A stretch of DNA of 64,000 nucleotides, from contig JBHGNT010000003.1 in the NCBI GenBank assembly GCA_043228905.1, positions 3,720,001-3,784,000 of the forward strand, in the 5' to 3' direction. How positions within the stretch are numbered: position 1 is the stretch's first letter; each line of letters starts with the position of its first letter. Positions 1,344 through 48,570 of this stretch are shown here, piece by piece. The position numbers were made by a program, and so were the translations under genes. Origin of the DNA: Azolla caroliniana. Its lineage: Eukaryota > Plantae > Polypodiophyta. The notes under the pieces are model-generated. The model did not search any database and was not told the DNA's origin. It worked only from the letters and a program-made list of their open reading frames with translations.

Positions 1344-1656
1344 GGGAAAAGTACCAAGATGCCCTTGGAAGTTCGTCTATTTACTAGAATGCCCCTAGAA
1401 GTTCCAAATTTACCAAACTACCCCTATGTCCAAAAAAATACACTTTATAAAGTAATTATACACTCAAATCTACAAGCCATATTTACCAAAATATCCTTAA
1501 ATCACAAATTTCTTTACTTAAGAGATTCTTTGGGTCCTTTGTACTTACTTTATAAAGTGTATTTTTTTGGACATAGGGGTAGTTTGGTAAATTTGGAATT
1601 TCCAGGGGCATTCTGGTAAATAGACAAACTTCCAGGGGTATCTTGGTACTTTTCCC
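1344..1656. mobile_element. Foldback MITE, Mutator-like, with ~110-bp terminal inverted repeats
   Basis: 1344-1453 (GGGAAAAGTACCAAGATGCCC...ACTTTATAAAGTA) is the near-perfect reverse complement of 1546-1656, around a ~90-bp spacer. Flanks TAAAAATAA / TAAAAAATAA resemble a 9-bp TSD differing by one A. Confidence 0.85.
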
Positions 1657-2916
1657 TAAAAAATAATTGATTTCAATCAATTTCTCTATCAAACGAGCAA
1701 ATAAATATTTATAGGCTATTATAGCCCAAACCACATATGCCACCTTCACAAGATTCCAAGTCAACTATAATGTAATTTGAGGCCAATCTAATGTTCCTGA
1801 AGATTGAGAGTGCACACATACAAAGATCATGCTCTAATTAGTCGCTCTAGCAAGATATCACGACTAGTTTCTAGATCCTCCCATGTAATGAAGATACTCG
1901 TTCATTCATCATGCATTATCAAGTTGTTTCTTATCAAGCATTTTTTCAAATTAACTTTTACAATGTTAGTAATATACATTCTAAACTCTTTCTCGAGTTA
2001 TCATCACTCATGATTCACTAGACAAGCACTCTAAAATATGGTCAACTCAAAGGAATAGGTGCTAAATAAAGCATAACAAAAACAACTAAATATGCTGCAT
2101 GCTCTTTAGTTGATATTACATTGCAGCTAACACATGTACATGCTTCTAATTTATCATCTCAAGCTCACAACACCAGAACCTTCCAACATCACAAAGTATT
2201 ATGTCATCTATGATTATAATCTATGCTACCATGTCTTTCTTTCACCTAAATGAGCGTAGCGTCTAAACATAGTACAACACATTATGAGATACAATACACG
2301 ACACATTGACCTGGAAAAGAAGTGGCATGCATTGATCATTTGTCACACCTCGTTTTGACAAAAACTGTTTACAACAGAATTTTGTACTCCCCAAGTCCCC
2401 GCAAGGTGCAACCTTTTTTTAAATTGCCCATTGAGTGCCAGTGCCTGCCTTTATTGAGGTTAAACTTGATGAAAGTAACAAGAAAGATGAAACAAAAAAA
2501 GAATATTATTTAGCAATAGAAATATGGTGTCAAATGCACCTCTAAGAATCAGAACAAACACGTCACCAAATTCACATGTCATCATCCGCATAACTAGAAA
2601 GGATGTTGAATAAAGAAGCATAATCGATTGATTATGAACCCATTAAAAGTTTAATGATTCCCGCTAGGAAATTAATGGCTGGTTTAAATCAATTATTTCA
2701 CTGAAACTTTTGAAAGTATTTCTACTGATGCAAGGCTTGCCAATGTATGGAATCAATTGATCCCTGGATTGATTATATACAACATTCTTTTAGCTTGTTC
2801 TCAATAACGACCATGAACCATGCAAAGCCTAAACATATTATCAAACCTTGAATTGGTTTAAATAGGCTTTTTCTATGGATTCCTATCTTGTCCTCGTGTT
2901 GTCAAGTTATATTTCC

Positions 2917-5900
2917 TCAGTAAACAGTACTTAATATTGGTTCACCTGACGCAGCAGAAGGAATTGTTGACCTTCGTGTTACTGTCATATTCAAGCCGGC
3001 TGTCGTGTGTATTGTGGCACCTGTTGTCATGCCCACCTGCCACACCATGCTCATTATATCGTTATTATTAAACTTCAATCTAAGACCTCATTGTAATGTA
3101 CTAAAGAATATGGTCATTATATATATTAGACTTCTATTTTCAACTCAATTGACGATCACATTAATGTGCAAATGATGATTTTTACTTGAACTCCAAGCCA
3201 GATCTTTCATTCAATATCCCACGGATTCATGCCTAATCTACTATTAAGACTTCTATCCCAATCAAAAGTGCAAAGGCAATATCTTGAATTATTAACCAAA
3301 GAAAATAAATTGCCATTGTATAGTTATTAGACTTCCAGTTGGACACAATGCAAAAATCTCATTAACATACTAACACATCCACATCCTTGATTAGAATTAG
3401 ACATTTATTAGTTCTATTTAATTGTATTAATGTACTAAGAATGTGACCATTCTCACATTTTTCTTTTCTTTTTGTTAATCCCTTACCGGTGGTGCTCCTG
3501 CTGTTAATTTAAAGTCGAACCGCCGGACAAGAATGGCTATAGATGAAATATTCTGAATGGCACTCATAGAGCACCGTGCAATTAATAATATCACATTAGC
3601 GTTAGTATTTTGATATATTGATCTTTTTTAACGCATTTAAAATCTTCTAGAAATTTTGCATATTATTACCTCAAAGGTAGCAAACATATCTCCAATACAT
3701 TTTCGAGCTCCTCCCCCAAATGGTAAGTATCTAGGGATCCAAGCAAACATAAAAAATGGATGGATACGTTATAGTTGGCTCTTGCGAAACTATGATCAGT
3801 ATTGAACTACTAAAACATGATAGATATAAATTGTGGATAGGTGGAGTTCGCATGCATGTCCACAAGAAACTTATAATTGTATAGCAATTAAGGTTGTGGA
3901 TTCAAGTGTATTCTGATGGTAACCTTAGGTTTAACTTTAAGCCCATTCTTTTTTTTTGGATCATGTTTTTATACTTGTTCATTTAAAACTAAAGTCTGAA
4001 GCAATAATGGATCTTAAAGTAATTTTAAAAAGGATTCACTGTTTTTTAGTCCAACATTCTGTTTAGACACTTCTAGAAAAATGGCTTTAAATTTTCGAAA
4101 ATTCACAACTCAAATATTGAGAATGATGAGAAATATGTAAAACTTACTTGAAGTTTTCTGTCACTTCATTTGGATCAGGACTATCAAGTGGCCATCTTTC
4201 CGGCTTAAATTCTTCAGCATCCTCCCATAAGCTTGGAGATCGGTGAAGATTCCACAATGAAATAAATATATCCTCACCTCTGATATATAATATATATATA
4301 TTTTCCGTGAAAAAGAAATCATGAATGTAACTTAACTGAAAGTTTGAATAAAGAAACAGAATAAGATGCTTACTTGGATATTTCATATTCTCCAAGAACA
4401 TCGTTTTCAAGGGAGCGTCTGATTAAGACTGGAGGTTGCGGATAAAGTCTTAACGTCTGCAAGATCAGGATTTTTGTTTCCTTTGAGATCAATACATAAG
4501 CTCCATATAGATCCTTATAAGTTAACAGTACTACCTCATTAATGACACGTGTTGTGTACTTGAGATTTTTCATATCCTCAATCCCTGGCATTCTGTCCCC
4601 AAGCACATCATCAACCTTCACAAACACGCCATTCAAATGAATCATTCAATCACCCATTTTGACGAGATTCAATAACCTCCTAAGGTTTCAGGAACCCTCA
4701 CTAGAAATTTTGGCATACCTCTTGTTGAACTTTCACCATGATAGTAGGATTCTATAGAAATAACACATACGAAAGAATCAACGTTATTACGCTAGCAATT
4801 AAGGATCAAGTGTTATTAAATTGGCAAAATGTTAACAAAGAGTTAGTGAAAACTCGCTTGGCTCTCCTACCTTTGCCAATAGATAGAAAGCCCATGTCAG
4901 AACTGCCGCTGAGGTCTCGTGGCCAGCAATAAGAAGTGTCATTAGATCATCGCGAAGTTGTTTACTTGTTACCTTCACCATCAAAGTGCACATAAAATTA
5001 TATATGGAAAAACAAACAAAAAAACCATGATGTTGACTTTGTAAGTTTGAGATACGTCACCAACTCACATCATCCCCAGAAGCTAAAAGAAAATGCAAGA
5101 TACTTGGGTCCCTCTCATTCATGTACTCTTCACTGAAGTTCACATTTTCCTCATCAATCATTTTCTGCAATTGAAGTATATCATAAGAGCTGAAGACAGA
5201 TGGGATGTTCATGATAAAAAGAAACTTATGAGAATGACAAAAAAAAAATGATAATATACAAAAACTTATAATACCAAGGGTATACCAGGTTTTCCTGATA
5301 TCAAAGTTAACTTAACCTAGATACATTTCGGCTCTTGACCCAGATTTAGATTTAAAAGTCAGTATATTGGAAAAATGTGGTTTACTTTTCAGACAATAAC
5401 AATTCACTCTTGTAATAACATCTTGAACAGTACCTTACAGATAGCTATGAGATCATCCAATGTCTTATTGATCAGATTAAGAGAAATTGCCACTTCCTGC
5501 TGCCTTGGATAAATGTCTTTGATAATAGGTATTTTCCAATATGGTATAACTGATACACTCCGTTCTTCTGCCTCCCGTAAAACCACATAAACTGCCTGGA
5601 AAAGGTGGGTGGCCAAATTTAGAAGTACATTTAAGGCAGGCCACCAGGGAAATAGGAATAGAAACAAATACAGCACCCAGATACTCACCTCTACAATACC
5701 TGTATCATGAGATAATGAATCAAAATCATAGTTGAAAACTGCTTTTCCAATTATGTCTAGAGTCAAGCGAGAAAACATTGATTCCATCTCTACATTTTCA
5801 CCATTGCTAGCAGCAGAGTCAAGCTTCTCACAAAGGTTCATGGCTGCTCTGCCAAATAATCCAACCATCTCTGCAACATACTGCAGTTTTTGAAATATCA

Positions 5901-7739
5901 CAGTACTTGTCATCATACATTTCTACTCATCAACTGGCATGAAAAACTCTCAAATTTCAAAGCAGATCACAGGATGTATCTTAACAAACATGTTTAGGTA
6001 TCATAGTCGAATACCCTCCCCTTTAACATAAAGAAAGAAAACAAGCACCTTTTTATGTAAAGCAGGGACAATTATACGTCTTCGAACACGCCATATTTCC
6101 TCCTCTGCTGGTATCAGCCCTTTTCCCATTACAAAATCCAATACCTCTGCAAGGATGCCCTGTTAAATGAAGCTCTAAAAAGAACCTGTTAGCAACCCAT
6201 AGCTTTTTAAAGAATCAACTAAGAACAACAGCATAAAAATAATGGCATCTATTTGTTGTGCTTCTTACCTTAGAATAAGCCTTCGTATTGTCTCTCAAAA
6301 GCCGCTTTGCCATCACAGGATCGGAAACAATTAGAAACGACTGTGGACAAGAGCATACACATTTGCATTGGTATAGCACACAACTGCACAAAATTCAGAG
6401 ATAATCTTCTGTGGAACTTCTATTACTTCTCTTTAGAAAAGGAAGCAATTTACCTTTGGTCCAAATGTTAGCCTGAAGATGCCACCATAGGTCAAATAGA
6501 GATCAAACAAAGGTAAAAAGAAAGGTTCTCCTGCGATAGCTCGCACATTGCCTTGTGCTTCTGGAATCCTCTTTGCCTTCTCAAGAAGATAATTTTTCTC
6601 AATTTTTTCAAGAAACTGCACAAGCATACGCCCCGGTTGCCCAAAGGTTTGCAAGAATTCACGTAATTTCCCAAGATTTCCCCTGCATTTCGAATTCTCT
6701 AATTATTTGAGTCACAACTGATATAGGACAAACACTTATCCAGAAAAGAAGCATGTTACTTTGGGCCACCAACTGTGAACTCGCCCGACAATATTCGATC
6801 TTTAAGATCATATTCATATTTTGACACCTTTTCCAATCTTTCCTCGGTGACATCATCCGGAGATCCATTTTCCTTTGAGGATGCATGTGTCACAGTGGAA
6901 TATGATAAGGTACCTGTTAGAAGAAGTGGCATACATAATGCCAATATTGTCTCAGCACACATGATTAGTGGCAGATAAAGAAAATGGCAGTGGTCATCTC
7001 TATACAGGCAAGGTAAAATGAAACAACATCAAACATGAGACATGAAAGGTATGTGGATGCATAAAATACATTCTGTTAATATATACCCAACATATTTATA
7101 CCACATTTAGTGACTAGAAAAGAATGAATGGTAATTCACATACATGGAAGAAACAATGGAAAACAAGAGCAAGATGTTTGAACATATAGCATGTCAATGT
7201 TTACTTAATTCTTATCTCGTTGCACATTAGGAAGGCAACAAAAAATATGAGAAACAGCAATTCAATGCATGCAAAAGGTAATTGAAAACACAAACAAATA
7301 TCAAATACGATGACATAGACTGTATAACCAATAAAAAACTCTCTTTTCTTATCATCGTACATGCAAATAGCGATGGAAAACATGTTGAAATACTATAGAG
7401 AACGTATGTTAATAAACAACTTTATATTCCTATCTCAAAGCATACTATTAACAGTTAAAAACTGAAAGAAAATAAACTGTACATGCAGAAGTTAATGGAA
7501 AGGAAACCGAATATCGCATCATAAGAAATAAGCAAAACAATTTGCATACCCGAAGAATTGTAGGGACCATGGGAGAAGCCGCTAGATGAGCCCCTGATGT
7601 AAATATTTCTTTTTACAGTAAAAGGTAATGGGGAAAAAGAAGAATGACAATGATGCTGCTGTTGATGATGATGAAGGTAATGTTTGCTCTGAGGTCGACA
7701 TGGATGAAGAAGAACCCCTGTCTGCAATGTATTAGCCAT
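2917..7739 (-). CDS. CYP97A: Cytochrome P450 CYP97A (LUT5-like carotenoid beta-ring hydroxylase), 16 exons, ~627 aa
   Basis: Exons 7739-7550, 6913-6760, 6682-6454, 6340-6269, 6159-6049, 5880-5689, 5595-5434, 5164-5069, 4972-4871, 4751-4719, 4615-4535, 4456-4374, 4279-4148, 3730-3670, 3552-3487, 3036-2917 all have GT-AG ends and join in frame (1884 nt). Motifs: RILSGEFTV (CYP97A-type N-region), [21 protein letters not shown]-helix AGHETSA, ETLR, PERW, heme [19 protein letters not shown]. The N-terminus looks like a transit peptide. Confidence 0.95.
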
Positions 7740-20342: not shown

Positions 20343-20841
20343 GTTGTGTTCAGGTGCTTGTGTATTGAAGAAGGGTATATTGTGACAATTATGCTAGAGG
20401 GCAGAAAGGCCAGTTTTAATTCTGATTTACTTTTCATGTCCAGGTGGAAATTATTTGAGCACATGTGGATTTCACGAATGGCAAACATATTGAGTAGCCC
20501 GATTTGTGATTCTAAGAATAACCATAATGGGCAGAACAGCAAACTCTTTGTGTGGTTTATTGAACTTCAAAAGGAATAATATGGGGTGTTCGTTTTGTGC
20601 CGAGATTAATTGCTATTTATTATTAATCTCATTGATACCCTTGTCATTTATTAAGATGAAATGGTTTGCGAATGTTGAGTATTGATATGTATGTGTTTCC
20701 ACTCTTCTACGTAAAATTGGTGCCTGGTTTACTCTCTTATAAGCTCAGGATTGTTTTTGGACATGGATATGATGGGTTTATAAAGGGTTTGATGATGCAC
20801 GACTCCAGTCACTGTGGGAAACATTTTTCATAGAATAAGCA

Positions 20842-21345
20842 GGGAATTGAAACTATTCAGAACAACAATGTATTACGTGGTTGTCTATTATGAGCAGTCT
20901 TTAGAATAAAGAGTTGGAGTTTTTAGAACCTTTGGAATAGCAAGGAGATAAAAAGCAAAGCATCAGTTATTTTTGGTCAGTAAAATTATGCAGCATGTAT
21001 GAGATTGTCGGGAATTGAAACTATTCAGAACAACAATGTATTACGTGGTTGTCTATTATGAGCAGTCTTTAGAATAAAGAGTTGGAGTTTTTAGAACCTT
21101 TGGAATAGCAAGGAGATAAAAAGCAAAGCATCAGTTATTTTTGGTCAGTAAAATTATGCAGCATGTATGACATTGTCGGGAATTGAAACTATTCAGAACA
21201 ACAATGTATTACGTGGTTGTCTATTATGAGCAGTCTTTAGAATAAAGAGTTGGAGTTTTTAGAACCTTTGGAATCGCAAGGAGATAAAAAGCAAAGCATC
21301 AGTTATTTTTGGTCAGTAAAATTATGCAGCATGTATGACATTGTC
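20842..21345. repeat. Three nearly identical 168-bp tandem repeats downstream of COX6a
   Basis: GGGAATTGAAACTATTCAGAACAAC starts at 20842, 21010 and 21178; I see only about two substitutions among the copies. Confidence 0.97.
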
Positions 21346-22930: not shown

Positions 22931-24129
22931 TATCACACTTTGATATAATGCTTTGTTGTTGATCACCTTCGCGTGGTGTTCATTGTTCATTTCCTAGAAA
23001 TTTGAATGGAGTATGAAGATTCAATGATGTTTTTCAATGTCTATATTTTTAAGTCAAATGTAAATTGAGCCCTAAACTACTAATATGTAGAGTTTGCTTG
23101 ATTAAGAATCTTTATTGTACAATGCAATTTGTTAAAGATCTAACCATGAAATCTTTTTGAAGTACGAAGGTACCATAAGAAAATGTGATTCCTTTGGCCA
23201 CAATTTTAGGTGATATTCATGCATCAATGGTGTTGGATTGTCATGGGAACATAAAAATAACATGAATATATTTCTTAGGAAGTTCAAAGAGTATTATTTG
23301 GAGATGGTGTACACAATAGGGAGCCATGGATTTTTACAACAAAATCAAAAAGTGCATGATATCTTCATATTTAGTACTAGGCTAACAACATTATATGATT
23401 GTGTTTTTTCCCTCTTAAGATGCATAATACTATTCTTCATGTCTTACATGCAAGAAGCACCACTCCCCCTTGCACTTGTAAGCATAGGAAAACTTTGAAA
23501 ATGAGGACTCACATAAAGGGAACCAAAGGGGAGATCCATTCTCATGAAACAACAACACACATGAAGAAAGCATAACCTCAATCAAATATAGTTTTGACAA
23601 GTCGAAATACGACGCAATCTATGAACTTTTTGCACTATAATATTAACTCATTGGTAAGTGATAGGTTTCTGATTGTATTAAGCTTTCTCTTCTAGCTCTC
23701 CATCTTTACCATTCCTTGGATGGCCTTATGCTTCCACCATTCTAGCAACCATCATGTATATGATGTGTTTATCCACACTAGGTTAGCCTATTAAGCAACG
23801 ATACTAGATACATTTACACATACTCCAAACTTCATGTAGCTTGCCCCAACAAACTTCACACAATTCAACACACCACAACTTTACTCAAGCAAATCATTGT
23901 TATAGCCAAAATGTGCGACACTTTATCCACTATACTAAAACACATTTTCCAAAGCACTTTGTCATGAGATATTACAGATTCCAAGCTTGTTGTGACTAAA
24001 ACAGACAAATTTGAATTAATTATTTCTCTCAAAGGTGTACATCATGAAGAAAGGATTGACATCTCATTCAAAACCATGAATAAGCAGATGTTACCTTGAT
24101 GTAAGGTAGACCAACATTGCTCTTAACAC

Positions 24130-24492
24130 CTACACACAAACTATCACAGAACCAACAATGGAGATAACACCATGAACTAGACCTTCACGGTAGATGTTGA
24201 TCGTTCCAGCTACATGACCGTTCACAGCTACGACGGTTGTGCTGTCTTCAAATCTAATAGGTGCACTAGTGACGCCATTGCCGAGATTCTTTACAGTAAC
24301 ATATAGATATGCGGGTGGCAACTCCACCACAACACCCACCTTGACAATTATGTTAACATCGACATGGTTTCGAGGGATAATGACAATATCATGGCTCGCA
24401 TTATTCTTTACCTTGCAAGTAGCTTCAACATTGTGCATCAGGAGGGCCACCATGAGAATGATACACATGAATTTCTTGCTTATGTATGCCAT
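24130..24492 (-). CDS. Intronless small secreted Val/Ile-rich protein, copy A (120 aa, family not recognised)
   Basis: Signal-peptide-like N-terminus ending VEA-T; TATAAAA ~120 bp upstream; ORF conserved without indels in the inverted paralog (111/120 aa identical) although the flanks carry indels. Confidence 0.85.
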   Translation of the reverse strand: MAYISKKFMCIILMVALLMHNVEATCKVKNNASHDIVIIPRNHVDVNIIVKVGVVVELPPAYLYVTVKNLGNGVTSAPIRFEDSTTVVAVNGHVAGTINIYREGLVHGVISIVGSVIVCV

Positions 24493-24512
24493 CTTTCTAT
24501 GACAAAATACAA

Positions 24513-24546
<34 letters not shown>

Positions 24547-24608
24547 AATGTACTCTAGTAATGGAAATATGCAAGAGGCTTTGTTAGAATAGTAAGGTTT
24601 TGGCAGCC

Positions 24609-24615
24609 TTTTATA
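24609..24615 (-). promoter_or_regulatory. TATA box of copy A
   Basis: CCTATAAAAGG on the - strand, conserved in copy B. Confidence 0.7.
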
Positions 24616-25402
24616 GGAATTGTGATTGTTGCAAGTGATTAATAAATAAAATGCTTTTGGATTATCATAATGCTATGAAGCTCTTAAAAGTTAATGAGTG
24701 CATGTTATGGGATCTATGCCTCATCATTCTATGGTTGGAAAGGCTTGTACTTAATTGTTATTATTTTGGGTTCAGGCAGCCTTATGGTTATAAGCTTAGA
24801 GAATCAATCAAATGTTGGTTGTTCATATGTGAGTGACATGTTATTTTGATGTTAAAAGTTTTGATGATGCCTCTTTGTTAGGTAGCCATTATGCCTTATC
24901 AACGTGGAAACATTACCTTTCTAATTTAAGTTCCCTTTTAACATCTTGGGGTGGTAAAATATTTTCTACAATTAGCATACATTTGTTCTTCAAGTCTCAT
25001 AGCCACAACAGTATGGGACATTGCCACAATAGTAGAATGGTTAGTTTCTAACAATATTATCGATATTTTTATTCTAGAGATAAAGAAAAAGTAAAAAATA
25101 CTTTCTTTTATCATAAGAGTTGCAAATGTGTTAGTAAAAACGCTAGCTATATAGGCATACTTCAATGCCAAAATGTTAGGCACTTTTGAATTACCGAAAT
25201 ATCTCTTTTAGAGTTTATAAGTATCTCCTTGCTTTCTAGTATTCATTTTGTTTCCACTCATCACTTAGTTCGCCATACATTTCTAGTTGAGACTGATCTT
25301 CTTAGAGTACCCAAAATTTCTAGGGCATTTGTTTTTCCACACTATAAGCATTGATCGTGTACATGTATCATATTATTAGTCACGATTTCTACCCTACATA
25401 TG

Positions 25403-26109
25403 TGTTGAGAATATGTCCCTCTGGTGGGAGGAAGAACCGACTGATCGAAAAGCCGACAGTCGATGACAGGGAAGATCTGACTGTTTGGAAAGCCGACAGT
25501 TGAAGAGTCGAAAACAATGAGTCGACTGTTTGAAGATTCGACTATTATTATTATAGTAATAATAATAATGATGATGTGTGGAAACAAGTCCCTCTAGATG
25601 GGAAAGAGAGAGGAGCCGAGTTGATGAGTGACTCGGCCTCGGCCGAAACCAGAAACGTGTATATAGCCAACTCGGGAGACTATAATTGTAAATAGTCTAA
25701 GTGTGCACCCCATGAGGGCTACGTATGTAAATGGTCGGAAAGTTGTGTAAGTATATATACAACTAGGGCAAACTTTATGCGTTGTGCAAAGGTTGTTGTA
25801 CAAAGATTGTAAAACGCTAGGGAGCGTGAGAGAGAGAAGGGAGAGCCGCGCCATAGCTGTGTGTGTAACAGTGGACGCGAAGAGCCCTATGCGGCTGATA
25901 CACTCGACAGAGTGTTGTAATCATCTCTGTATTGTATATCCACTATACTATAGTGAAGAATTTGTTCACCCGTTGTTTTTCTACGTTTTAGGGTTTCCAC
26001 GTAAATATTTGTGCATTGTTGTGTGTCTTGTTTTTTCTGGCATTTCTGTGATTCGTATTTCAGCACATAGTTCGTTTATTGTGATCTATTCCGCGTCGAT
26101 TTCTCAACA
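25403..26109. mobile_element. Solo LTR (707 bp)
   Basis: TGTTGAGAA...TTCTCAACA termini (perfect 9-bp inverted repeat, TG..CA), exact 5-bp TSD ATATG on both sides, CpG-rich relative to the flanks, no internal coding region. Confidence 0.9.
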
Positions 26110-26699
26110 ATATGCAAGGGGAAAGTGATGCTTCTTGCATTCAAGTGATATAAAATAGGAGCATTATGTATCATGAGAGCAAATATGCACAAATCATACC
26201 GAATATGAAAATATAATGTATTTGGTGATTTTGTTAGCATATCTATAGGCTATGACTTGTGGAAGGTTCAAAAAAGCCATGTTTCCTTACATGTACAATT
26301 TGTATCTCTACATAATACTCTCCAAGTTGAGAAAGCCTATGGCTACCTAACATTTTTTTCCAAAACAAATTATCCTTCCATTAGTTATAAAGAAAGGTCA
26401 TAACGATTATATCATACAAAGTTTTTTTTCCCAAGCTCGTCTTGTGTAGACAACGGTTAAGGAAACAAATCTATGTACTCCAACATAGAGAAAACAGTCC
26501 AGCAATAACAATCTATTCCCTAGATACATTGCAAGGCAACAACGAAAGTAGCTCTATTCGGAAACAAACCCTCTGAGGTCATAGTTATGAGCCATTCAAT
26601 ACTTCTTCAACATGTACATCTCGGTTTTGAGGGCGATCAACTACGTTCTTTGGTTTTTCAAGAGACCATTTTCCACGTTCGTGGTTGTAAAGTCAACAA

Positions 26700-27326
26700 C
26701 TATGCTTCCTCTTTCCCCATCAACCATCTTGTTGGTTTACCACCAAATTCCCCTATACATACAACAACAAATTAAGTCAAGTTTCCTCCTCTCCTCATGA
26801 GCATATTCTTTGCCCCCCACACGATCATCACTCTTCCTTATAAAAAAAACATAAAAACTAATTCGTTAAGTCCTCATCAACCATCTCGCCAAATACACCA
26901 AAATCCTGCACATAAACAATAAAATGTGTCTAAATTCCTCATCTCCTCATGTGAATGTGCTTCGATCTCCACACCATCTTCACTCATCCTTATCCAAAAC
27001 ATAAATTTTACGTCATTAAGTTCACATCATCCATCTCGCCGAATACCATCAAAATCCTGCACATACATGAGTCTTTTTTCCTCATACCCTCATGAGAGTA
27101 TGTTTCGTCCCCCACGGCCTCATCACTCATCCTTATCCAAAAACATACATTGTGCTTCATCAAGTCCACATCAACTTCTCACATATTACTGCCAAAACTT
27201 GTACATACAAACAACTAAATGAGTCTAGTCTTCTGAATAGATTCTACTTCAAACCCCACACCACCAACACTCATCCTTATCAAAAACACACATTTTGCTT
27301 CCTCAAGTCCACATCAAACTTCTCGT
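26700..27326. repeat. Degenerate tandem array, ~145-bp unit, 4-5 copies, directly upstream of copy B
   Basis: AAGTCC(T/A)CATCAAC..TCTC variants at ~26868, 27018, 27162 and 27305, each preceded by CACTC(A/T)TCCTTAT. Confidence 0.75.
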
Positions 27327-27601
27327 ATGGCTACCTAACATTTAGAGTAGCATCATAACTTTTAACATTAAAATCATATGTCGTTTACATATGAACAACC
27401 AACATTTGATTGATTCTCTAAGCTTACAACCATAAGGCTGCCCGAACCCAAAATAATAACAATTAAGTACAAGCCTTTCCAACCATAGAATGATGAGGCA
27501 TAGATCCCATAACATGCACTCATTAACTTTTAAGAACTCCATAGCATTATGATAATCCAAAAGCATTTTATTTATTAATCACTTACAACAACCACAATTC
27601 C

Positions 27602-27608
27602 TATAAAA
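27602..27608 (+). promoter_or_regulatory. TATA box of copy B
   Basis: CCTATAAAAGG ~120 bp upstream of the ATG at 27721. Confidence 0.7.
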
Positions 27609-27720
27609 GGCTGCCAAAACCTTACTATTCCAACAAAGCCTCTTGCATATTTCCATTACAAGAGTACATTGAGTGAGAGAGAGAGAGAAAGAGAGAGAGT
27701 TTGTATTTTGTCATAGAAAG

Positions 27721-28083
27721 ATGGCATACGTAAGCAAGAAATTCATGTGTACCATTTTCATGGTGGCCCTCCTCATGCACAATGCTGAAGCTACTTGCAA
27801 GATAAAGAATAATGCGAGCCATGACATTGTCATTATCCCTCGAAACCATGCCGATGTTAACATAATTGTCAAGGTGGGTGTTGTGGTGGAGTTGCCACCT
27901 GCATATCTGTATGTTACTATAAAGAATCTCGGCAATGGCATCACTAGTGCACCTATTAGATTTGAAGACAGCACAACCGTCGTGGCTGTGAACGGTCATG
28001 TAGCTGGAACGATCAACATCTATCGTGAAGTTCTAGTTCATGGTGTTATCTCCATTGTTGGTTCCGTGATAGTTTGTGTGTAG
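27721..28083 (+). CDS. Intronless small secreted Val/Ile-rich protein, copy B (120 aa)
   Basis: ATG at 27721 matches copy A; signal-peptide-like N-terminus ending AEA-T; 9 mostly conservative substitutions relative to copy A. Confidence 0.85.
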   Translation: MAYVSKKFMCTIFMVALLMHNAEATCKIKNNASHDIVIIPRNHADVNIIVKVGVVVELPPAYLYVTIKNLGNGITSAPIRFEDSTTVVAVNGHVAGTINIYREVLVHGVISIVGSVIVCV

Positions 28084-29699
28084 GTGTTAGGAGCAACGTT
28101 GGTCTACCTTACATCAAGGCAACATCTGCTTATTCATGGGTTTGAATGAGATGCAAATCCTTTCTTCATGATGTACACCTTTGAGAGAAATAATTGATTC
28201 AAATTTGTTTGTTTAGTCACAAAGTGTTGGAAATATGTTAAATATTTCTCATGACAAAGTGTTTTGGAAAATGTGTTCTATTAGTGTCTATAATAATGAT
28301 GTGTTTGAGTAAAGTTGAGGTTTGTAAGTTTGTTCGTAAGCTAATGATTTATTACCATTTTTAGGGAAGTTTGTAATATATGTGTAAATGTATCTAGTAT
28401 TGTTGCTTAATAGGCTAACCTAGTGTGGATAAACAAATCAGAGACATGGTGGTTGCTAGAATTATGGAAGCATTAGTCCATCCAGGGAGCATTGAAGATG
28501 AAGAGCTAGAAGAGAAAGCTTGATACAACCAAAAACCTATCACTTACCGATGAGTTATTATCATAGTGCAAAAATATCATAGATTGCATCAAATTTCCAC
28601 TTGTCAAAACTATCTTTCATTGAGGTTATACTTTCTTTATGTGTGTTTTTTGTTTCTTCGGAACCATTGTCTTCTTTGTTCTCTTTATATGAAACATTGT
28701 TTGAAATGTAGCAATGATGAATGTTGTGATGCCATACATGGAGGCACTAGGGTACTCAACAAGTTAGACTACTCATGATTGTAATCACAATTAAATTATG
28801 AGTAGAAAGTGACTTATCTTATTCCTATTGAAGTGCCATGCATTCATTAAGTGATTAATAACTTTGTAGCCTAGTAAAAATCTTGTTTACAAGTGTTTGA
28901 TTTATTTATGATGGGGACTTATGAAAACTACATATGAGTATGCATGTACGTATGATGAATGCAAAATATATATTTGCATTGAAGTAACACTATGTAAAAA
29001 TAAACTTGCATGCCCTAGATTGTCATGGTCATTGTTCTAATGTGTGTGTTGAATTTTTTCATATAAGAAGATTGGAAAAGTGTTAGTTGTGTGATATTCT
29101 AATGCTAGACTTGCAATTTATCAAAATGTAAAAGTTGATGGTCATGTAATGGTGTCTGATTTGACATGTGACTCATAAGATTGTATTATGTAATATTATG
29201 GTAGGCTTCTCATACACATGCTTAATTACACAAACTTGAATGTTCTAGATGGTAACCATGCATTTCCAATGACAAATGTTTTGACATGTCTCCTAGTCTT
29301 CGGAGAAGGAAATGCATTCGATTATATATTAGTAAAAGAATTTGATGCATCCATTGGGAATACATTCATAATTGGCCCATTGTCACTAGACTTGAACTAG
29401 AATCTCTTATACGTGCACATTGACAAATGCATTAGGTTACAAACGAAAGAGGCACATTATGCCATCCTGCCATCTAAAAGTTCATCTATACGCAAATGAG
29501 GTTTATAGTCATGTCATGAACCTCTCCCCTAGTAAAGATGTGAAAACCAATGGGAGCAATTGAAGGATTTCATTCTCAAGGTAGGGTATCAATATTTTAG
29601 TGCACTTATAAGTGGACAACGAATGCTTGGTTTAATGAAGAACACAAAGGTCATCACAAAATGTTCAAGCTCACAAAAGATAAGAATAAAAAAGGCCTA

Positions 29700-30449: not shown

Positions 30450-33400
30450 ATAAAGGAATTCACATACCTTATACTTAATAGTGTTTTTCCATTATCTTGT
30501 ATCGACATTCATTTTTCCCACTAATCATTCATTTTTTCCTCTAATCATGTGTAATGAGATTGGAAGGCTGTCCATTACTTTTGCATTTGTTGAGATGTCC
30601 ATGCACTGATATAATATGTAATGAGAAAAGAACAAAGTTTATATTGATTGACATAATGTCTTAGGAATTCACATACCTTCTGTGCTAAATATTGAATCTT
30701 GGTTTTCATTTTACCTTGCACATATAGAGATGATCATTCAGCTAATCATATGTAATGTAAACAGTAATATTATGGAGAAAGTAAGTAACATGCTACTTTT
30801 ATGCATAAGTATTTGCTCTGTATCAGTTGTGAATCAGATAATTAGAGGATTTGAAATGCAGGCGAAGTCTAGGGAAATTAGGAGGACTCTTGCAGACCTT
30901 TTGGGCAATAGGGAGGGGTGTTGGCGTGCACAGTTTCTTGAAAAACTCTGAGAAAAACTATCTTCACAAGAAGAAAAACAGGATTCCAGAAGCATGAGGA
31001 AACTCGCGAGCTATCTCAGGAGAACCTTTCCTTATACCTTTGTATGAAGCCTGAAGTTTGATGGTAAATTGATTTCTCTATAAAAATGAAATAGAATCAT
31101 TGTAACACATTATCTGAATTTTTGTGCAGTTGTATGCTATAAGCCTATACCAATGTGTATGTGTGTATTCTTGTCCACAGTCAGTTCTAGTTGTTTCTGA
31201 TCCTATGATGGAGAAGCAGATTTTGAGCGACAATACAAAGTTATATTCTAAGGTAAGAAGCATGAGAAATGGCAGCCATTTTTTTTTCTGTTTTTCTTAG
31301 TTGATTCATTACAAAACGATGATTCGCTGACAGGTTCTTTGAAGCCCCATTTAACAGGGGATCCTTGCAGAGGCATTGGATTTTGTAATGGAAAAAGTGC
31401 TTACACCAGCACAGGACGGACTGCGGCAGATTCGGAGGTGGATAATCGTCCCTGCTTTGCATAAAAAGGTGTTCGTTTGGATTCTTAATGTTAAAGGGAA
31501 GGATATTCGATTAGGACACTATTCTTAACTTAAGAATGTTCAGTTTTGAGTAGCAATTTATGATAACAAATACTGTGATATTTTAAAAATCTCAGTATGT
31601 TGCAGAGATGGTTGGATTTTTTGGGAGGGCAGCCCTGAACCTTTGTGAGAAGCCTTTGAAGTTGCTGCTAGCAATGGCAAAAATGTAGAGATGGAATAGA
31701 TGTTTTCTCGCTTGATTCTAGACATAATTGGAAAAGCTGTTTTCAACTGTGATTTTGATTCATTATCTCATGATACAGGTATTGTAGAGGTGAGTATCAC
31801 TGTTCTGTATTCGTTTCTCTTCCTGTTTCCCAGGTTTGGCCTCTCTTAAATGTACTTAAATTTGGTCACCCACCTTTTCCAGGCAGTTTATGTGGACTTA
31901 CGTGAGGTGGAAGACCGATGTCTACCAGTTATACCATACTGCAAATTTCCTATCATCAAGAACCTTTATCCAAGGCAGCAGAAAGTGGCAATTTCTCTTA
32001 ATCTGATGAGTAAGATCTTGGATGATCTCATAGATAACTCAAAGGTATTATAAACGATGTTATCACAAGAGCTAATTGTCTTCTCTGAAAAGTAAATCAC
32101 ATTTTTTTGATATACTGATTTCGGAAAGTACATATTGTGACATGAGCCAAAATGCATATCTAGATTAAGTTAACTTTGATGTCAGGAAAACCTGGCATGC
32201 CCTTGGTTTAGAAATAATGGCCTATAATAAAAACACTACTATTAATCCTCTTTTGAATGCCAAAGATCCCAGTGATGTATCTTTATTTCTCTTAATTCGC
32301 TGCAACACATTCATTTCCTATTCATATGGGTATCCGTTAATTTGTGAATTGTTAACATAAATGTGACGATTACGTTATGGAATCCTAAACATAAATATGA
32401 ACATGTGTGCTCTTGGATTGTGATGAGCTGAGTATGTATGTATTGTGTTTTCTGGTATGCATAATATTGCTGATTATGTTGCCTTTTCCTACTAGGGGTG
32501 TGAAGATTGTATACAATTGACCATTGCTGTCATTCTCATAATTTTCTTTTTATCATGAATATCTTATCTGTATTCAGCAGAAAATGGTTGATGAGGAAAA
32601 TGTGAACTTCAGTGAAGAGTACATGAATGAGAACTAAAAGAACTAAAGAGGATATATATTGACGGAAAAATAATTAATACATATCGGTGAAGATATCTTT
32701 ATTTCATCGTGGAATCGTCACCAATCACTGAGCTTAGGGAGGATGATAAAGAATTTAAGCCTGAAAAATGGCGTCTTGATGGTCCTGATCCAAATGAAAT
32801 AAAGCTAAGATGATACAGGGCGGTGTTCTGTAATCACTGTTCAGAATATTTGGGTATATCCATTATTATCCGGCAGTTTGGCTTTGATTTAACAAGAATC
32901 TTAGTATATTAGTGCAGTCACTTAAAAATAACGAATGTCTGACAAAGGGCATGGGTGGATCCTTGGTACATTAATGAGATCTTTGCATTGTGTCCAACTA
33001 GAATCATAATAATAATAGTATAGCAATGTATTTTTTAGTGAATAATGCAAAATATGACCTTAATAATAGAATATGTATGGATCCTAGGAGACTGAGGGAA
33101 AGATCTTGCATGGGGTTCAAATAGAAGTCTAATATTTCAATGGGTTTGGATTGCTCACACATTAGTAAGATCTTTCTGTTGAGTTTAAAATTGAAGTCTA
33201 ATAAATATAATGAGCATAGGTGTGTAGTACATTAAAATGAAATCTTGGACTGAAGTCTAATAATAACAATACAATGGGCATGGTGTGGCAGGTATGCATG
33301 ATAACAGGTGCCACAATACATATGAGAGCCGGCTTGAATATGTCCATAACACGAAGGGTAAAGATTCCCAGGTGAACCAATGTCAACTACTGTTTAGTGG

Positions 33401-33950
33401 GGAAATGTAGTATGAGAACACAAGGACAAGTCAGGAATCCATAAAAAAAGTTCTTTAAACCATTTCAAGAATGCCAATGGTTCATGGTCCTCATTGAGGG
33501 CAAGATAGAGAGTCTTATATAATCAATCCACGGTTCAATTGATTCCAAAGATTGGCAAACCTCACATCCATGGAAATACTTTCAGAATTTTTAGCAAATG
33601 GATTTCTTTTAACCTGGCCATAAAATTTCTGGTGGAAACCATTAAGCTTATAATGTGCTAATAATAGCTTATGCTTCTTTAGTGACATCAATTCTTGTTT
33701 AACATTGGAATGTGTTAATAACAGCTTATGCTTCTTTAGTGACATCACTTCTGGTTTCACTGGTGATGACAGGTGAATTTCATGGCTGATTTGCCCTGAT
33801 TCTTACAGGTGCATTTCACATCATATTACTATGACTAAATAATTGTCTTTTTGTGTTATCATCTTTCTTGTTACGTTCATCAAGTTTAACCTCAATAGAG
33901 GTGGAAAGGTTGTTCCTTGCACAAAAAATTTCTGTAAATTTCCCTTAAAA
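30450..33950 (+). pseudogene. Inverted, intron-retaining CYP97A pseudogene
   Basis: Collinear with the reverse complement of ~7130-2360: exon 3 (~30862), 4 (31181-31252), 5 (~31358-31468), 6 (~31596-31788), 7 (31883-32044), part of 8 (32581), 13 (~32680-32800), 15 remnant (~32846), 16 (33292) and 3' flank. Frameshifts and stops are present; exons 1-2, 9-12 and 14 were not found. Confidence 0.93.
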
Positions 33951-34399
33951 ACATATGGTTTGTGTCAATGCACCTCATTTTGACAAAGCTCTATGTTCAG
34001 TTACTCAACTTAGTCAGGTGAAAGAAACACATGAAGAAGATATTATGATCATAATTGTAGTAATAAATGACATTGTTACTTGATGGGATTGGAGCATTGG
34101 TGGTGTGAGCACATTTATGCCTAAGCACAATTGGATTAACTTCTATTTGGAAGCTTTTGATACCTAGGAGGATTGACAATCCTTTCTGACATTGATATTA
34201 ATATAAACTCAATAGCACATGAAACATCTGTTTGTTTTTCTTTTGTTTTAGATAACATCTATTCCGGTGATTGAATGTACTTGTCTTTCTTTTGCTAGTG
34301 AATTATGACCTCTAATAACCGCAGAAAGAGTTTAGACTGTATATTATGAAGCATTGTGTAAGTTAATTTGGTATAATGCTTGATACAAAACAATACTTC

Positions 34400-44887: not shown

Positions 44888-47800
44888 TCAGATGGAGATG
44901 AGGTCAGGAGGAGAATCAATACACATCTTCTTAGAAAATGATGATGATAATGATGATGATGATGAAGGGGAAGAAGAATTGGTGAGCATTTGAAGCACTT
45001 CACGCATAGTGGGTCTCTGCATAGGTAGCTCAGCAAGGCAATGAAGTGCTACTTTAAGGACAAGCATTATCTGAGTCATGATAACATTAGGTTCTCGGTT
45101 CGAATCGGGCTTGATGCGAGGGTCGATGACTTCCATTAATCCTTCTTTGCTCTGTAACTTCATCCGGACCCATTGAGCAATGTCTATGGCTTCTCCGAAC
45201 TCGGGTTCGAAGGGCCGCCGCCCCGTGACGAGCTCTAATAACACTACTCCGAAGCTATATATGTCACTCTTCTCGTCCACTTTCAATGTGTATACATACT
45301 CTGCAAATCATCAAAAAAACAAATATTTTTCTGTTATGTTTGGGTTTAGGGTTAAAAGAACATGTTATGTTAGGGTTTATGTCATCTACTGTTAAAAAGA
45401 ACCTTAGTATAAACCCACATTATGTGTTTGTAACTAATCTTACCATATCTCTATATATAGCCGTTGACATCTATAGTAGAACCTTCGTAACATATACAGT
45501 CATTGACATCTATAGTAGAATCTTTACAAAAATAAGCAAGAAGACTTACCAGGAGCAATGTAACCATAAGATCCTGCTACCGAGGACATAGATTCGTGGA
45601 AATGAAGCACTTTCGCGAGCCCAAAATCCGCAACATGGGCTTCATATTTCGAGTCCAGGAGGATGTTATTCGATTTAACGTCCCGGTGAACAATGATAGG
45701 AGAGCAATCATGGTGTAGGTAATGAAGACCTTGGGCGGCTTCAGTAGCAATCTTATATCTTTTCAACCAATCTAAGGAACCACCCCTAGGGCCATGTAAC
45801 AACTCACCTAAGCTCCCATTAGGCATATATTCATATACCAATAGGTTAGTATCTCTACTAGAACAGCAACCCAAGAGCCTAACTATATTCCTGTGCCTTA
45901 TCTTCCCTAGGGTTTGAATTTCAGCTGAAAACCCATGATCATCTAGTGTGTGGTGGTGGTGGTGTTCACCCACTTTATTGTTGTATGTAGGTAGTTTCTT
46001 CACAGCTACATATCCAGAAGGGGTTGAGCACCTATACACTATGCCCGACCCACCTTTCCCTATGATATTGTCATCGGATAGACACGCCAACACATGGTCC
46101 GCGGTGAAATCGAGCTTTTGGTAGGCTGTAAGCTTCCATGGCTCGAGTGTGAAACCGTCTCCATGTCCGAGCAACGAGAAGAAAGCATGCCGATTGTATA
46201 CGATTCCGGCAATGAACACCGTGACCGTTAGAGACGATATCGATCCAACGATTATCCAATATATAGTTTCAGGCTGGGGCTTCCCACCTCTTCTTGTGGA
46301 GTCATTATTCCTCACCATGTCTGATTGGCAAGGTGTTTCAATTTGATCCCCACATAGCCCATCATTGCCCACAAATGAGCTTGCATTGAATGTAGCAAAT
46401 TGCCCAAGATTTGGAATAACTCCCGATAAGTTGTTATACGAGAAATCGACCGATGTGAGGGTCTGCATTTTCTGGAAAGATGGAGGTATGGCACCATACA
46501 ATCGGTTCCTCGACAAGTTTAGGTAATCTAACACACCCAAGTTTTGAAGACTAGGCGGTATCTCGCCATCAAGCTTATTCTTGCTCAAGTCCAAATAGGT
46601 TAGATCCTCACATTGCCCCAATGTAGATGGAATGGACCCATCTAGTTGGTTCCCGCTCAAATCGAGCTTTGAAATCTGCTTCAAAGAGCTTATTTCCAAT
46701 GGAATGGGTCCAATGAGCATGTTATCTGGCAAGAGCAAAGCTTGAAGGGAAGATAGGCTGCTAAGGCTGGATGGGATGGAACCGGTAAGCGAGTTCCGAG
46801 ATAAATCTAGTCGGCCCATCTTAGTGTCGACGAGAGATATGTTAGGTGAAGGTATGCTCCCACTAAGCTGGTTATTGGGAGCTTCTAGAATCTGTAATGA
46901 AGGGAGTGAGATGAGTCCATCTGGGATGGAGCCATTGACAAAATTGTGCCCAAATCTCAACCTTGTGAGGCTAACGCATTGCCCTAACCCTAGTGGGATA
47001 GGACCAGAGAACATGTTGTTGAAGAGGATGAGCCTCTCTAGTCTACCCATAGCACAGAGTGAAGGTGGGATAGAACCATGGAAGGAGTTGGAGGAGAGGT
47101 CTAGGGTTAGGAGGCCTTGGTGTGAGCCTAGGGTTTGCGGGACCATCCCGGACATGTTATTCTCCCATAGGGACAAAACTTGTAGGGAAGGTAGGCTGGG
47201 GATGAACCCCGGGATTAGGCCCTGTACCCTGTTCCGGAAGAGGTTTAGAAGCTCCAATCGTCCGAGGCCCGAGAAAGTGTCCGGGATGTGTCCCGAGAGG
47301 AGATTGTTAGAGAGGTCGAGGGACCGCAAGCCCCCGAGCTGGCCGAGCTCCTCGGGTATCGGACCCGAGAGAGAATTGATCTGTAGGAAGAGTGAATCAA
47401 GATTGGTGAGGTTCCCAAGGTGCGGTGGGATGTTTCCGGACAGTCCACAATCGGCCAAGTCGAGGCGGACCAATCGGGTAAGCCGTCCCAATGCGGAAGG
47501 GATACCGGCATCAAATTGGTTGTAGTAACCCAAGTAGAGGTCCTCAAGGAGGGCCAAATTGCCGATCTCCACGGGAATTCTTCCAGTTAGAGAGTTTCCG
47601 GAAAGCGCAAGGTAGGAGAGGTTCATGAGGGAGCCATATTGAGGCGGGATCGGGCCTTCGAAGTAGTTACCACCGAGGTGGAGATGGTGGAGAGAATTGA
47701 GCTTGCTTATCTCTAAGGGTAATGGGCCAGTGAAGTTGTTATTGTAGGCATCAAGGACATGGAGGGAGGCCAGATTGGTCAGGTTTTGGGCTAGAAAGGG

Positions 47801-48361
47801 GCCATTGAAGAGATTGTTGGATATGTTTAGGGACCTTAGGGTAGGGCCAATGTCACAAACACTTGGGGGCAGGGGTCCACTGAGATTGTTGGAGGCTATG
47901 GTGAGATTGACTAGGTTGTGGAGGAGGCCAATTGAGGAGGAAAGGGAGCCAGAGAGGCTCATGTTGGAGAGGTCTAAGGACTCCACAACTAGCAGACCAT
48001 TGCTACTGCCATGGTTTCTCCTTGAAGAGCATTTCACTCCATTCCAGCTACATGGGCTCATTGCATAGTCTATAGACCCAGCATTATCATCATCACCATC
48101 ACCATCCCCTTGCTCTTGGAGATGGATTACCCAGCTGTTTAAGTGGCCCTCTGTATCTATAAGACTATGCTTTATGTCTAGTAATGCATTCATCTCACCA
48201 TCAATGGGAGCTCCAATGGCATAGTTATTGTTAGTGGTAGTGGCAGTGGCAGTGGTGGTGGTGGTGGTGGTGGTGGTGGTAGAAGGAGTAGCACTAATAG
48301 TATTAAGCTTAGAAACAACGAAGAAGAAGGCTATGAAGAGGAAGAAAGGTTGGATAGCCAT
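44888..48361 (-). CDS. LRR receptor-like kinase, subfamily XI, BAM/CLV1 clade, 2 exons, ~1074 aa
   Basis: Exons 48361-45550 and 45300-44888 with the intron at the conserved GYIAP^EY site. Signal peptide, CSWNGVKC cap, ~21 LRRs including LYLGYYN, TM helix, WKLTAYQKLDFT, IIGKGGSGIVY, DHGFSAEIQTLGKIRHRNIVRLLG, HRDVKSNN, DFG, C-terminal PPDLISI. Confidence 0.95.
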
Positions 48362-48431
48362 AGCTGGAGGAAGAAAGAAGCAGAAGAAGACACCAGGAAG
48401 AAAATCAGTGGTGAGTAGATGTATGTATATA

Positions 48432-48570
48432 TATACTCTGTTTCTGTAACACAAACACAAAAATATACTCTGTTTTTTTAACACACACACACACACACAA
48501 AATACTCTGTTTTTTAACACACATACATATATGTACATATTATATATGTAATACTCTGCTTTTTAACTAG
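48432..48570. repeat. Four ATACTCTG(T/C)TT..AAC units with CA/TA spacers upstream of the receptor kinase ATG
   Basis: Units at ~48433, 48465, 48502 and 48551. Confidence 0.8.

What the first reader, a model, noticed from the sequence alone, without database searches (positions are those of the whole stretch)
24130..28083. Head-to-head pair of genes for an unrecognised secreted, ultra-Val/Ile-rich two-cysteine protein
Seen: two intronless 120-aa ORFs, each with a TATA box and signal-peptide-like leader, 111/120 identical. The 9 differences are mostly V/I/A swaps, with no indels although the flanks have them. The predicted 96-aa mature chain of copy A is 34% Val+Ile (22 V, 11 I), has no W/M/Q, one N-A-S sequon and only two Cys, at mature position 2 and the penultimate residue. 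Inference: an end-to-end disulfide closing a compact hydrophobic all-beta fold. It could be a lineage-specific defence, surface-active or wall protein, or a signalling ligand. It matches no family I recognise (not CLE, LTP, defensin, RALF); there is only a faint N-terminal echo of S-protein-homologue/thaumatin first strands.
Basis: partly seen in the sequence, partly recalled or inferred. Interest (0 to 1): 0.8.

Follow-up and report, generated by a model that had tools for sequence, protein, structure and literature searches.

The report
Fern secreted protein with sticky tail
Two near-identical, transcribed fern genes encode members of an undescribed family, found so far only in ferns, of small, likely secreted proteins with a predicted compact beta-sheet body and a greasy tail that likely lets them stick to each other in the wall or surface of maturing leaves, a role not yet tested.

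Summary
In detail: two divergent intronless 120-codon ORFs, 111/120 identical, 34% Val+Ile, Cys only at mature positions 2 and 95. Both copies occur in spliced-RNA runs, and dN/dS against relatives is 0.16-0.28 (mature part), so the genes are real. They belong to an unnamed family of 23-50% identical 'hypothetical' proteins of Ceratopteris and Adiantum; no Pfam, NCBIfam or PDB sequence match. AlphaFold2 gives a confident transthyretin-like beta-sandwich for residues 1-80 (best VIA Z 8.2, generic) and leaves the hydrophobic, family-wide 16-19-residue tail unplaced. The 'end-to-end disulfide' is not a family trait: 10 of 15 distant members pair Cys2 with Cys41, three lack Cys2, and Cys95 is confined to this clade. 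The twin genes are not a young duplication: coding regions group by lineage, flanks by position, which indicates gene conversion. Ceratopteris members at all five loci rise during frond maturation. Best reading (0.4): a non-enzymatic apoplastic protein that self-associates through its tail. Rivals: SPH-like ligand, membrane-active defence protein, membrane-anchored ectodomain. A genuine new family, but a common fold and no function yet; unannotated fern-specific families are numerous.

The parts
24130..24492 (-). Gene copy A, intronless ORF, 120 aa
   Evidence: A-type contigs in spliced-RNA runs X1 and X9
27721..28083 (+). Gene copy B, intronless ORF, 120 aa
   Evidence: zero-mismatch contigs in runs X1, X2, X9
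24421..24492 (-). Predicted signal peptide of A (codons 1-24)
   Evidence: hydrophobic core mean Kyte-Doolittle 3.1, small residue before the cleavage site in 15 of 15 distant members with an N-terminus; no SignalP run
27721..27792 (+). Predicted signal peptide of B (codons 1-24)
24181..24420 (-). Predicted transthyretin-like beta-sandwich, mature residues 1-80 of A
   Evidence: AlphaFold2 block pLDDT 74-93; fold matches
27793..28032 (+). Same domain in B
   Evidence: 95% identical to the modelled A chain
24133..24180 (-). Hydrophobic C-terminal tail of A (mature 81-96) with conserved Gly84 and clade-specific Cys95
   Evidence: pLDDT < 50 for 82-96; tail present in all full-length members, mean KD 1.3-2.6
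28033..28080 (+). Hydrophobic C-terminal tail of B
24608..24615 (-). TATA box of A
   Evidence: conserved in L001-L005
27602..27609 (+). TATA box of B
23509..24889 (-). Left arm of the inverted duplication
   Evidence: blastn self-match, 87.9% over 1395 columns
27327..28692 (+). Right arm; 27351-28214 is the about 95% identical, probably gene-converted tract
27709..28195 (+). Span covered by RNA-run contigs (the 5' edge is cut at the GA repeat, so it is not the transcription start)
25403..26109 (.). Solo LTR (TGTTGAG...CTCAACA) with ATATG target-site duplication in the spacer; absent from L002 and L003

Best explanation
The two genes are transcribed, selectively constrained members of a fern family of likely secreted, likely non-enzymatic proteins whose predicted transthyretin-like beta-sandwich carries an exposed hydrophobic tail that would drive self-association, probably into disulfide-linked oligomers, in the wall or surface layer of expanding fronds. 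Shown: ORFs, transcription, purifying selection, family membership, gene conversion between the two copies. Predicted: signal peptide, fold of residues 1-80. Inferred: no catalytic role (invariant residues are Asn, Pro and Gly at turns); the tail folds as a hairpin strand turning at Gly84 and needs a partner; spare cysteines (65, 77, 93/95 in different subfamilies) cross-link chains; the frond timing is taken from Ceratopteris homologues. The two head-to-head copies are likely one functional unit held alike by conversion, giving extra dose rather than two specificities.
For: Transcription: runs X1, X2, X9, X3 splice GT..AG introns of the neighbouring COX6A gene and hold contigs over 27709-28195; B-exact and A-type contigs both occur. 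Selection: A or B against L002-L005, mature dN/dS 0.16-0.28, 8 of 8 comparisons Fisher p <= 0.005. Family: 12 of 13 phmmer hits are homologues, more by profile; every one with an organism name is Ceratopteris or Adiantum. Fold: pLDDT about 90 for 1-60, 74-82 for 61-80; nearest folds are non-catalytic transthyretin-like domains (PepT2 ECD Z 8.2, rmsd 3.0, 83 aligned; HGSNAT luminal domain Z 7.5; AlgF Z 7.2). Invariant among 16 distant members: P16, N45, G49, P54; N6 15 of 15; G84 14 of 14 that reach it. Tail kept in length and hydrophobicity, alternating beta pattern clearest in P0029, P0032, P0039 (moment at 170 degrees 0.31-0.36). Odd cysteine counts in 8 of the 22 aligned proteins. Ceratopteris genes at 5 of 5 loci (7 of 9 genes looked up) are in the list that rises with frond development; three peak in expanding sporophylls (PMC13434465 supplements).
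Against: No direct evidence of oligomers, wall location or abundance. The fold matches are generic (tool note: best Z of 7-8 is typical without a true relative) and show no function. In the window clade the tail's hydrophobic moment fits a helix (0.26-0.39 at 100 degrees) better than a strand (0.17-0.24), and the two closest fold matches are ectodomains of membrane proteins, so a membrane anchor is not excluded. Three members have no cysteine, so disulfide cross-linking cannot be essential family-wide. Expression evidence comes from homologues only 23-43% identical. Gene conversion can follow from inverted-repeat geometry alone and need not mean selection for dose.
Confidence: 0.4

Rival explanations
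1. An SPH-like extracellular signalling ligand: a small stable beta-sandwich recognised by a cell-surface receptor.
For: Small, likely secreted, multi-gene, developmentally regulated; SPH15 appears among fold matches (Z 5.1, rmsd 3.5, 80 aligned); SPH/PrsS proteins are ligands with an 8-9-strand sandwich (PMC13033167, passages).
Against: No Pfam SPH match for any of 22 members at E <= 1; four conserved cysteines of PrsS absent; a very hydrophobic tail is unusual for a diffusible ligand (own knowledge); copies are homogenised, not diversified.
Confidence: 0.2
2. A membrane-active defence protein: the sandwich binds microbial or insect membrane lipids and the hydrophobic tail inserts into the bilayer.
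For: Membrane-binding sandwiches appear among fold matches (aegerolysins OlyA Z 5.7 and RahU Z 5.4, pneumolysin domain 4 Z 5.7); tail amphipathic as a helix in this clade; ferns expand defence genes by tandem duplication (PMC9477723, passages).
Against: Those Z values are background level; no aegerolysin or toxin Pfam match; dN/dS well below 1 with no sign of diversifying selection in pairwise tests; net charge varies from -7 to +6 across members, and there is no Trp in the window proteins.
Confidence: 0.2
3. A membrane-tethered ectodomain: the tail is a C-terminal transmembrane helix or GPI-addition signal that holds the sandwich on the cell surface.
For: Tail mean KD 2.3-2.6 in the window pair; best 19-residue windows 1.6-2.6 in many members; tail unplaced in the model; UniRef names one Adiantum member 'Transmembrane protein'; the two closest folds are ectodomains of membrane proteins.
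Against: Lysines lie inside the tail of P0029, P0032, P0039; a GPI cleavage at normal spacing would remove strand 74-78 of the confident fold (spacing rule recalled); no cytosolic basic residues follow the tail.
Confidence: 0.12
4. A compact monomer closed by an intrachain Cys2-Cys95 bond, acting as a carrier of a hydrophobic ligand.
For: Cys2 and Cys95 are the only cysteines of the window pair, and Cys95 is kept in 21 of 21 close relatives; wherever Cys2 is kept without Cys41 another Cys is present (65 or 95).
Against: Tail unplaced; by the inferred topology a hairpin or helix tail would end at the opposite pole from Cys2 (inference, no coordinates available); not family-wide.
Confidence: 0.08

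Closest known systems
SPH / PrsS (S-protein homologue) family, e.g. SPH15, PDB 6g7g
   Same: Small plant proteins with a signal peptide and an 8-9-strand beta-sandwich; multigene family (PMC13033167, passages); structural overlap Z 5.1, rmsd 3.5 over 80 residues.
   Different: No sequence or profile match; four conserved cysteines absent; extra hydrophobic C-terminal tail; found only in ferns here; frond rather than pistil expression.
Transthyretin-like (prealbumin-fold) non-catalytic domains: PepT1/2 extracellular domain, HGSNAT luminal domain, AlgF, VHL beta domain
   Same: Best structural matches, Z 6.6-8.2.
   Different: 5-10% identity; these are parts of larger proteins or unrelated adaptors; Foldseek found nothing at E <= 0.001; common fold, no shared function shown.
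Aegerolysins (OlyA, RahU) and cholesterol-dependent cytolysin domain 4
   Same: Small beta-sandwich; Z 5.3-5.7.
   Different: Background-level scores over about 67-77 residues; no Pfam match; the window proteins have a signal-peptide-like leader, which terrelysin lacks (PMC9505663, passages).
Uncharacterised fern proteins: Ceratopteris KP509_12G055300, 26G049700, 14G019800/900, 17G081600/700, 22G075400/500/600; Adiantum GOP47_0024193, GOP47_0010078, L7F22_066596
   Same: True homologues (E 1e-24 to 4e-4 by phmmer; 1e-24 or better by profile): leader, N6/P16/N45/G49/P54/G84, tail; several are also in local pairs or triplets.
   Different: All annotated 'hypothetical'; different cysteine patterns; 23-50% identity.

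Membership tests
SPH / PrsS (S-protein homologue) | Small secreted protein of about 15 kDa or less | tested here: met
   120 aa with hydrophobic leader; leader judged without SignalP
SPH / PrsS (S-protein homologue) | 8-9-strand beta-sandwich of SPH15 topology | tested here: inconclusive
   Z 5.1, rmsd 3.5, 80 aligned, rank 38; background level
SPH / PrsS (S-protein homologue) | Four conserved cysteines (PMC13033167, passage on PrsS) | tested here: not met
   Two Cys in the window pair; 0-4 across the family, none invariant
SPH / PrsS (S-protein homologue) | Match to the Pfam family profile | tested here: not met
   0 of 22 members at E <= 1; profile-profile comparison could not be run
Transthyretin / HIU hydrolase | Prealbumin-type sandwich | tested here: inconclusive
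   HIUases Z 5.0-5.1; better scores to other transthyretin-like domains
Transthyretin / HIU hydrolase | Pfam match and C-terminal catalytic tetrapeptide of HIUases (motif recalled) | tested here: not met
   No Pfam match; chain ends in a hydrophobic tail
Aegerolysin | Pfam match | tested here: not met
   0 of 22 members
Aegerolysin | Lipid binding, pore formation with a partner | not testable with these tools
   needs liposome assays; no partner-like ORF among the 19 long ORFs of the window
Cysteine-rich peptides (nsLTP, defensin, RALF) and thaumatin-like proteins | Fixed patterns of 4 to 16 cysteines (recalled) and Pfam match | tested here: not met
   2 Cys; no Pfam match; Foldseek to osmotin and NP24 only E 0.5-0.7
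DUF7748 (PF24928) | Pfam match | tested here: inconclusive
   Atlas lead at score 0.81, rank 30, chance level; no Pfam hit, but I did not verify that this model is in the library copy
GPI-anchored proteins | Omega site, polar spacer, uncharged hydrophobic C-terminus | tested here: inconclusive
   Hydrophobic end present, but the spacer is a predicted core strand and some members have Lys in the tail; no GPI predictor available

The most novel reading that the evidence does not exclude
A fern-specific 'plant pilin': secreted transthyretin-fold subunits that polymerise by lending their hydrophobic C-terminal strand to the next subunit, locked by interchain disulfides, forming a protein fibre or film in the wall or cuticle of maturing fronds. 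No such protein polymer is known to me in plant walls (own knowledge; not searched exhaustively).
Probability: 0.1. Interest if true: 0.8.

Novelty: new variant of a known kind. Interest (0 to 1): 0.4.

Why it matters
It defines an unnamed secreted-protein family shared by distant ferns (Pteridaceae and the window's lineage), with a model, conserved positions, Ceratopteris gene ids and an expression window, so it is directly testable by gene editing in Ceratopteris. If the tail builds polymers or attacks membranes, it would be a new class of plant wall or defence protein. [quoted passage not shown] The locus is also a clean small example of concerted evolution in an inverted gene pair.

Tried and rejected
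No own genome is held, so copy number beyond the window is unknown; within the window only the two copies match. Pfam, NCBIfam and PDB sequence searches gave no hit at a curated cut-off; best stray hit SlpA_C for one member (E 1.4e-4, below cut-off). P0030 (481 aa, acidic repeats) was dropped as a spurious phmmer hit. First AlphaFold2 run on close relatives only was poor (pLDDT 46.9). Foldseek against PDB and BFVD: nothing at E <= 0.001. ESM Atlas: best score 0.88, chance level, for P0004; no usable hit for P0029. Homodimer prediction: no verdict, score 0.00, alignment not used; neither support nor evidence against. The run search listed no holder on record as RNA; the RNA nature was shown afterwards by splicing. 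Lack of contig cover on the flanks is not used as evidence. A versus B alone is not significant over the whole ORF (dN/dS 0.38, p 0.07; mature part 0.26, p 0.03). The two profile searches scored only about 8,000 candidates and missed known members, and the full-library search used a single sequence, so absence from mosses, lycophytes, seed plants and microbes is not proven. Literature: no main text names six of the Ceratopteris/Adiantum locus tags or six Ceric ids; topic searches (listings only) showed no description of the family. Supplements of PMC9477723 (one scanned file unread), PMC10626718 and PMC11449451 held none of the ids. The SPH15 structure paper was not held. Rejected: pseudogene or chance ORF (selection, transcription); transposon gene (no such domain, dN/dS and family context); recent one-off duplication; enzyme (no invariant catalytic-type residue).
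Full report
1. Observation. The window holds two intronless 120-codon ORFs, A at 24130-24492 (-) and B at 27721-28083 (+), pointing away from each other. They differ at 9 residues and 16 nucleotides, 7 of them synonymous. The predicted 96-residue mature chain of A has 22 Val, 11 Ile, two Cys (positions 2 and 95) and no Trp, Met or Gln. Each has TATAAAAG about 110 bases upstream. They lie in an inverted duplication, 23509-24889 against 27327-28692. No third copy is in the window. Neighbouring ORFs match a P450, ankyrin repeats, COX6A and an LRR receptor kinase, so this is plant nuclear DNA; all homologues that carry an organism name are ferns, so I take it as a fern. The genus was not established.

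2. The genes are real. Four runs were laid. All four join GT..AG introns of the neighbouring COX6A gene, so they are spliced RNA. Runs X1, X2 and X9 hold contigs identical to copy B; X9 record 23 and X1 records 3 and 8 carry the nucleotide states of copy A; X3 holds a 90-95% relative. Five related loci were fetched (5 of 80 candidate stretches); all keep the frame without indels and keep the TATA box. For A or B against L002-L005, mature-part dN/dS is 0.16-0.28, with Fisher p of 0.005 or less in 8 of 8 comparisons; L001 is nearly identical to A and uninformative; A against B is 0.38 (p 0.07) over the whole ORF.

3. The pair evolves in concert. L002 and L003 overlap in reverse over the spacer at 94.8% and represent the two halves of the same head-to-head locus in a relative; L003 continues into A's flank and L002 into B's. 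The CDS tree groups winA with winB and L001 (100/99), L002 with L003 (100/99) and L004 with L005 (86/85). The 3' flank tree (L004 left out because its flank breaks off) groups winA, L001, L003 against winB, L002, L005 (100/100). So the duplication predates these lineages, and the promoter-plus-CDS tract has been homogenised within each, most simply by gene conversion. The loci come from different assemblies, so pairing them by lineage is an inference. The spacer of the window also holds a solo LTR, 25403-26109, with an ATATG target-site duplication, absent from L002 and L003.

4. Family. A word search found 5 clusters with 21 close proteins, 83-99% identical, unnamed. phmmer over 1.84 billion representatives gave 13 hits at E <= 0.001; one (P0030) is an acidic repeat protein and was dropped; the others are homologues at 27-47% or the close cluster. 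Profile searches added five more. Named members are 'hypothetical proteins' of Ceratopteris richardii (nine genes at five loci, several in local pairs or a triplet), Adiantum capillus-veneris and A. nelumboides. Pfam, NCBIfam and PDB sequence searches found no family. Among 16 distant members P16, N45, G49 and P54 are invariant, N6 is in 15 of 15 and G84 in 14 of 14 that cover them: turn-type residues, no catalytic set. Val+Ile runs from 17 to 35%. An Asn-x-Ser at position 6 is present in 14 of 15 distant members and shifted by one residue in the window pair; it may be structural rather than a glycosylation site.

5. Cysteines. Of 15 distant members with an N-terminus, 10 have Cys2 with Cys41, two have Cys2 with Cys65 and no Cys41, and three lack both Cys2 and Cys41, two of them with Ser at both places. 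This points to Cys2-Cys41 as the usual bond. Cys95 is in the window pair and 21 of 21 close relatives, but only 1 of 16 distant members. Eight of the 22 aligned proteins have an odd number of cysteines.

6. Structure. With the diverse alignment, AlphaFold2 gives mean pLDDT 78.5 and pTM 0.71: residues 1-80 form a beta-sandwich (strands 2-6, 12-16, 24-26, 31-34, 40-45, 62-67, 74-78), while 82-96 are below 50. Foldseek finds nothing at E <= 0.001. VIA-align places it among transthyretin-like domains: PepT2 ectodomain Z 8.2 (rmsd 3.0, 83 aligned), HGSNAT luminal domain 7.5, AlgF 7.2, VHL 6.7; aegerolysins 5.4-5.7, pneumolysin domain 4 5.7, Bacteroides adhesins/pilins 5.2-5.3, SPH15 5.1. The tool warns that such scores are common without kinship. 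The tail is kept in all full-length members, 16-19 residues, mean hydropathy 1.3-2.6, starting at a conserved Gly84 after Asn, Leu, Asp, Ser, Gly or His; it alternates like a strand in P0029, P0032 and P0039 (with internal Lys) and looks more helical in the window clade. I had no coordinates, so Cys distances were not measured.

7. Expression of homologues. In PMC13434465 (passages and supplement rows read), 7 of 9 Ceratopteris genes looked up, covering 5 of 5 loci, are in 'Frond_CoR', the genes that rise from earlier to later frond stages in both vegetative and fertile fronds; 14G019800 and 22G075600 are not. That list has at most 7,817 genes of 36,857 (PMC9477723, passage); five of five loci has p about 4e-4 at that rate and 0.01 if the true base rate were 0.4. 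Ceric.12G055300, the nearest Ceratopteris homologue, and 17G081600/700 are 'sporophyll-enriched', cluster 4, which peaks in expanding fronds. In the three annotation rows shown, the domain and Arabidopsis, Physcomitrium, Marchantia, Selaginella and rice columns are empty. Equating KP509 tags with Ceric ids rests on equal numbers and matching isoform counts.

8. How it most likely works. Shown: expressed, constrained genes of a fern family. Predicted: secretion, an 80-residue sandwich. Inferred: no enzyme activity; an exposed hydrophobic tail that needs a partner; spare cysteines that could cross-link. I commit to a non-enzymatic apoplastic protein that self-associates through the tail in the wall or surface of maturing fronds (0.4). 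Rivals: SPH-like ligand (0.2), membrane-active defence protein (0.2), membrane-tethered ectodomain (0.12), disulfide-closed monomeric carrier (0.08).

9. Comparison and novelty. It resembles SPH proteins in kind (small, secreted, beta-sandwich; PMC13033167, passages) but fails their cysteine and profile tests; it is not an aegerolysin, transthyretin, thaumatin or cysteine-rich peptide by the tests run. Searches for the locus tags and gene ids in main texts found no paper, and topic searches listed no description. It is an undescribed family on a common fold. [quoted passage not shown] Verdict: real, new variant of a known kind, interest 0.4; boldest open reading, a strand-lending protein polymer of fern walls, probability 0.1, interest 0.8.

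Noticed in passing
window 25403-26109: Solo LTR with TG...CA ends and ATATG target-site duplication, inserted in the spacer between the two genes; absent from related loci L002 and L003.
   Followed up: yes
window 26714-27325: Four degenerate tandem units of 143-152 bases (62-75% alike) just upstream of the right arm; not seen on the A side.
   Followed up: no
window 27792-27999 (runs X1, X2, X9): A third transcript type about 90% identical to copy B occurs beside A- and B-type contigs; COX6A also shows two variants at similar depth, so these samples may be hybrid or hold a further paralogue.
   Followed up: no
window 20351-20440: A 90-base GT..AG intron in the 3' untranslated region of COX6A is spliced in 3 of 4 runs.
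   Followed up: partly
window 1924-6761 and 30783-34393: A second, older inverted duplication (69-82% identity in pieces) including P450 exons; the 30783-32207 copy may be a P450 paralogue or fragment.
   Followed up: no
window 20842-21345: Three 168-base tandem copies, 99% identical, downstream of COX6A.
   Followed up: no
window 44888-48562 (-): LRR receptor-like kinase of the CLV1/BAM type (type recalled, Pfam LRR and kinase matches), about 17 kb from the pair; no link shown.
   Followed up: no
window 1343-1657: A 315-base self-palindromic stretch (81% identity to its own reverse complement), MITE- or hairpin-like.
   Followed up: no
L001:179-538: Copy with A-type flanks (98.8%) but the B-type residue at codon 104, consistent with recent exchange between the copies.
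   Followed up: partly
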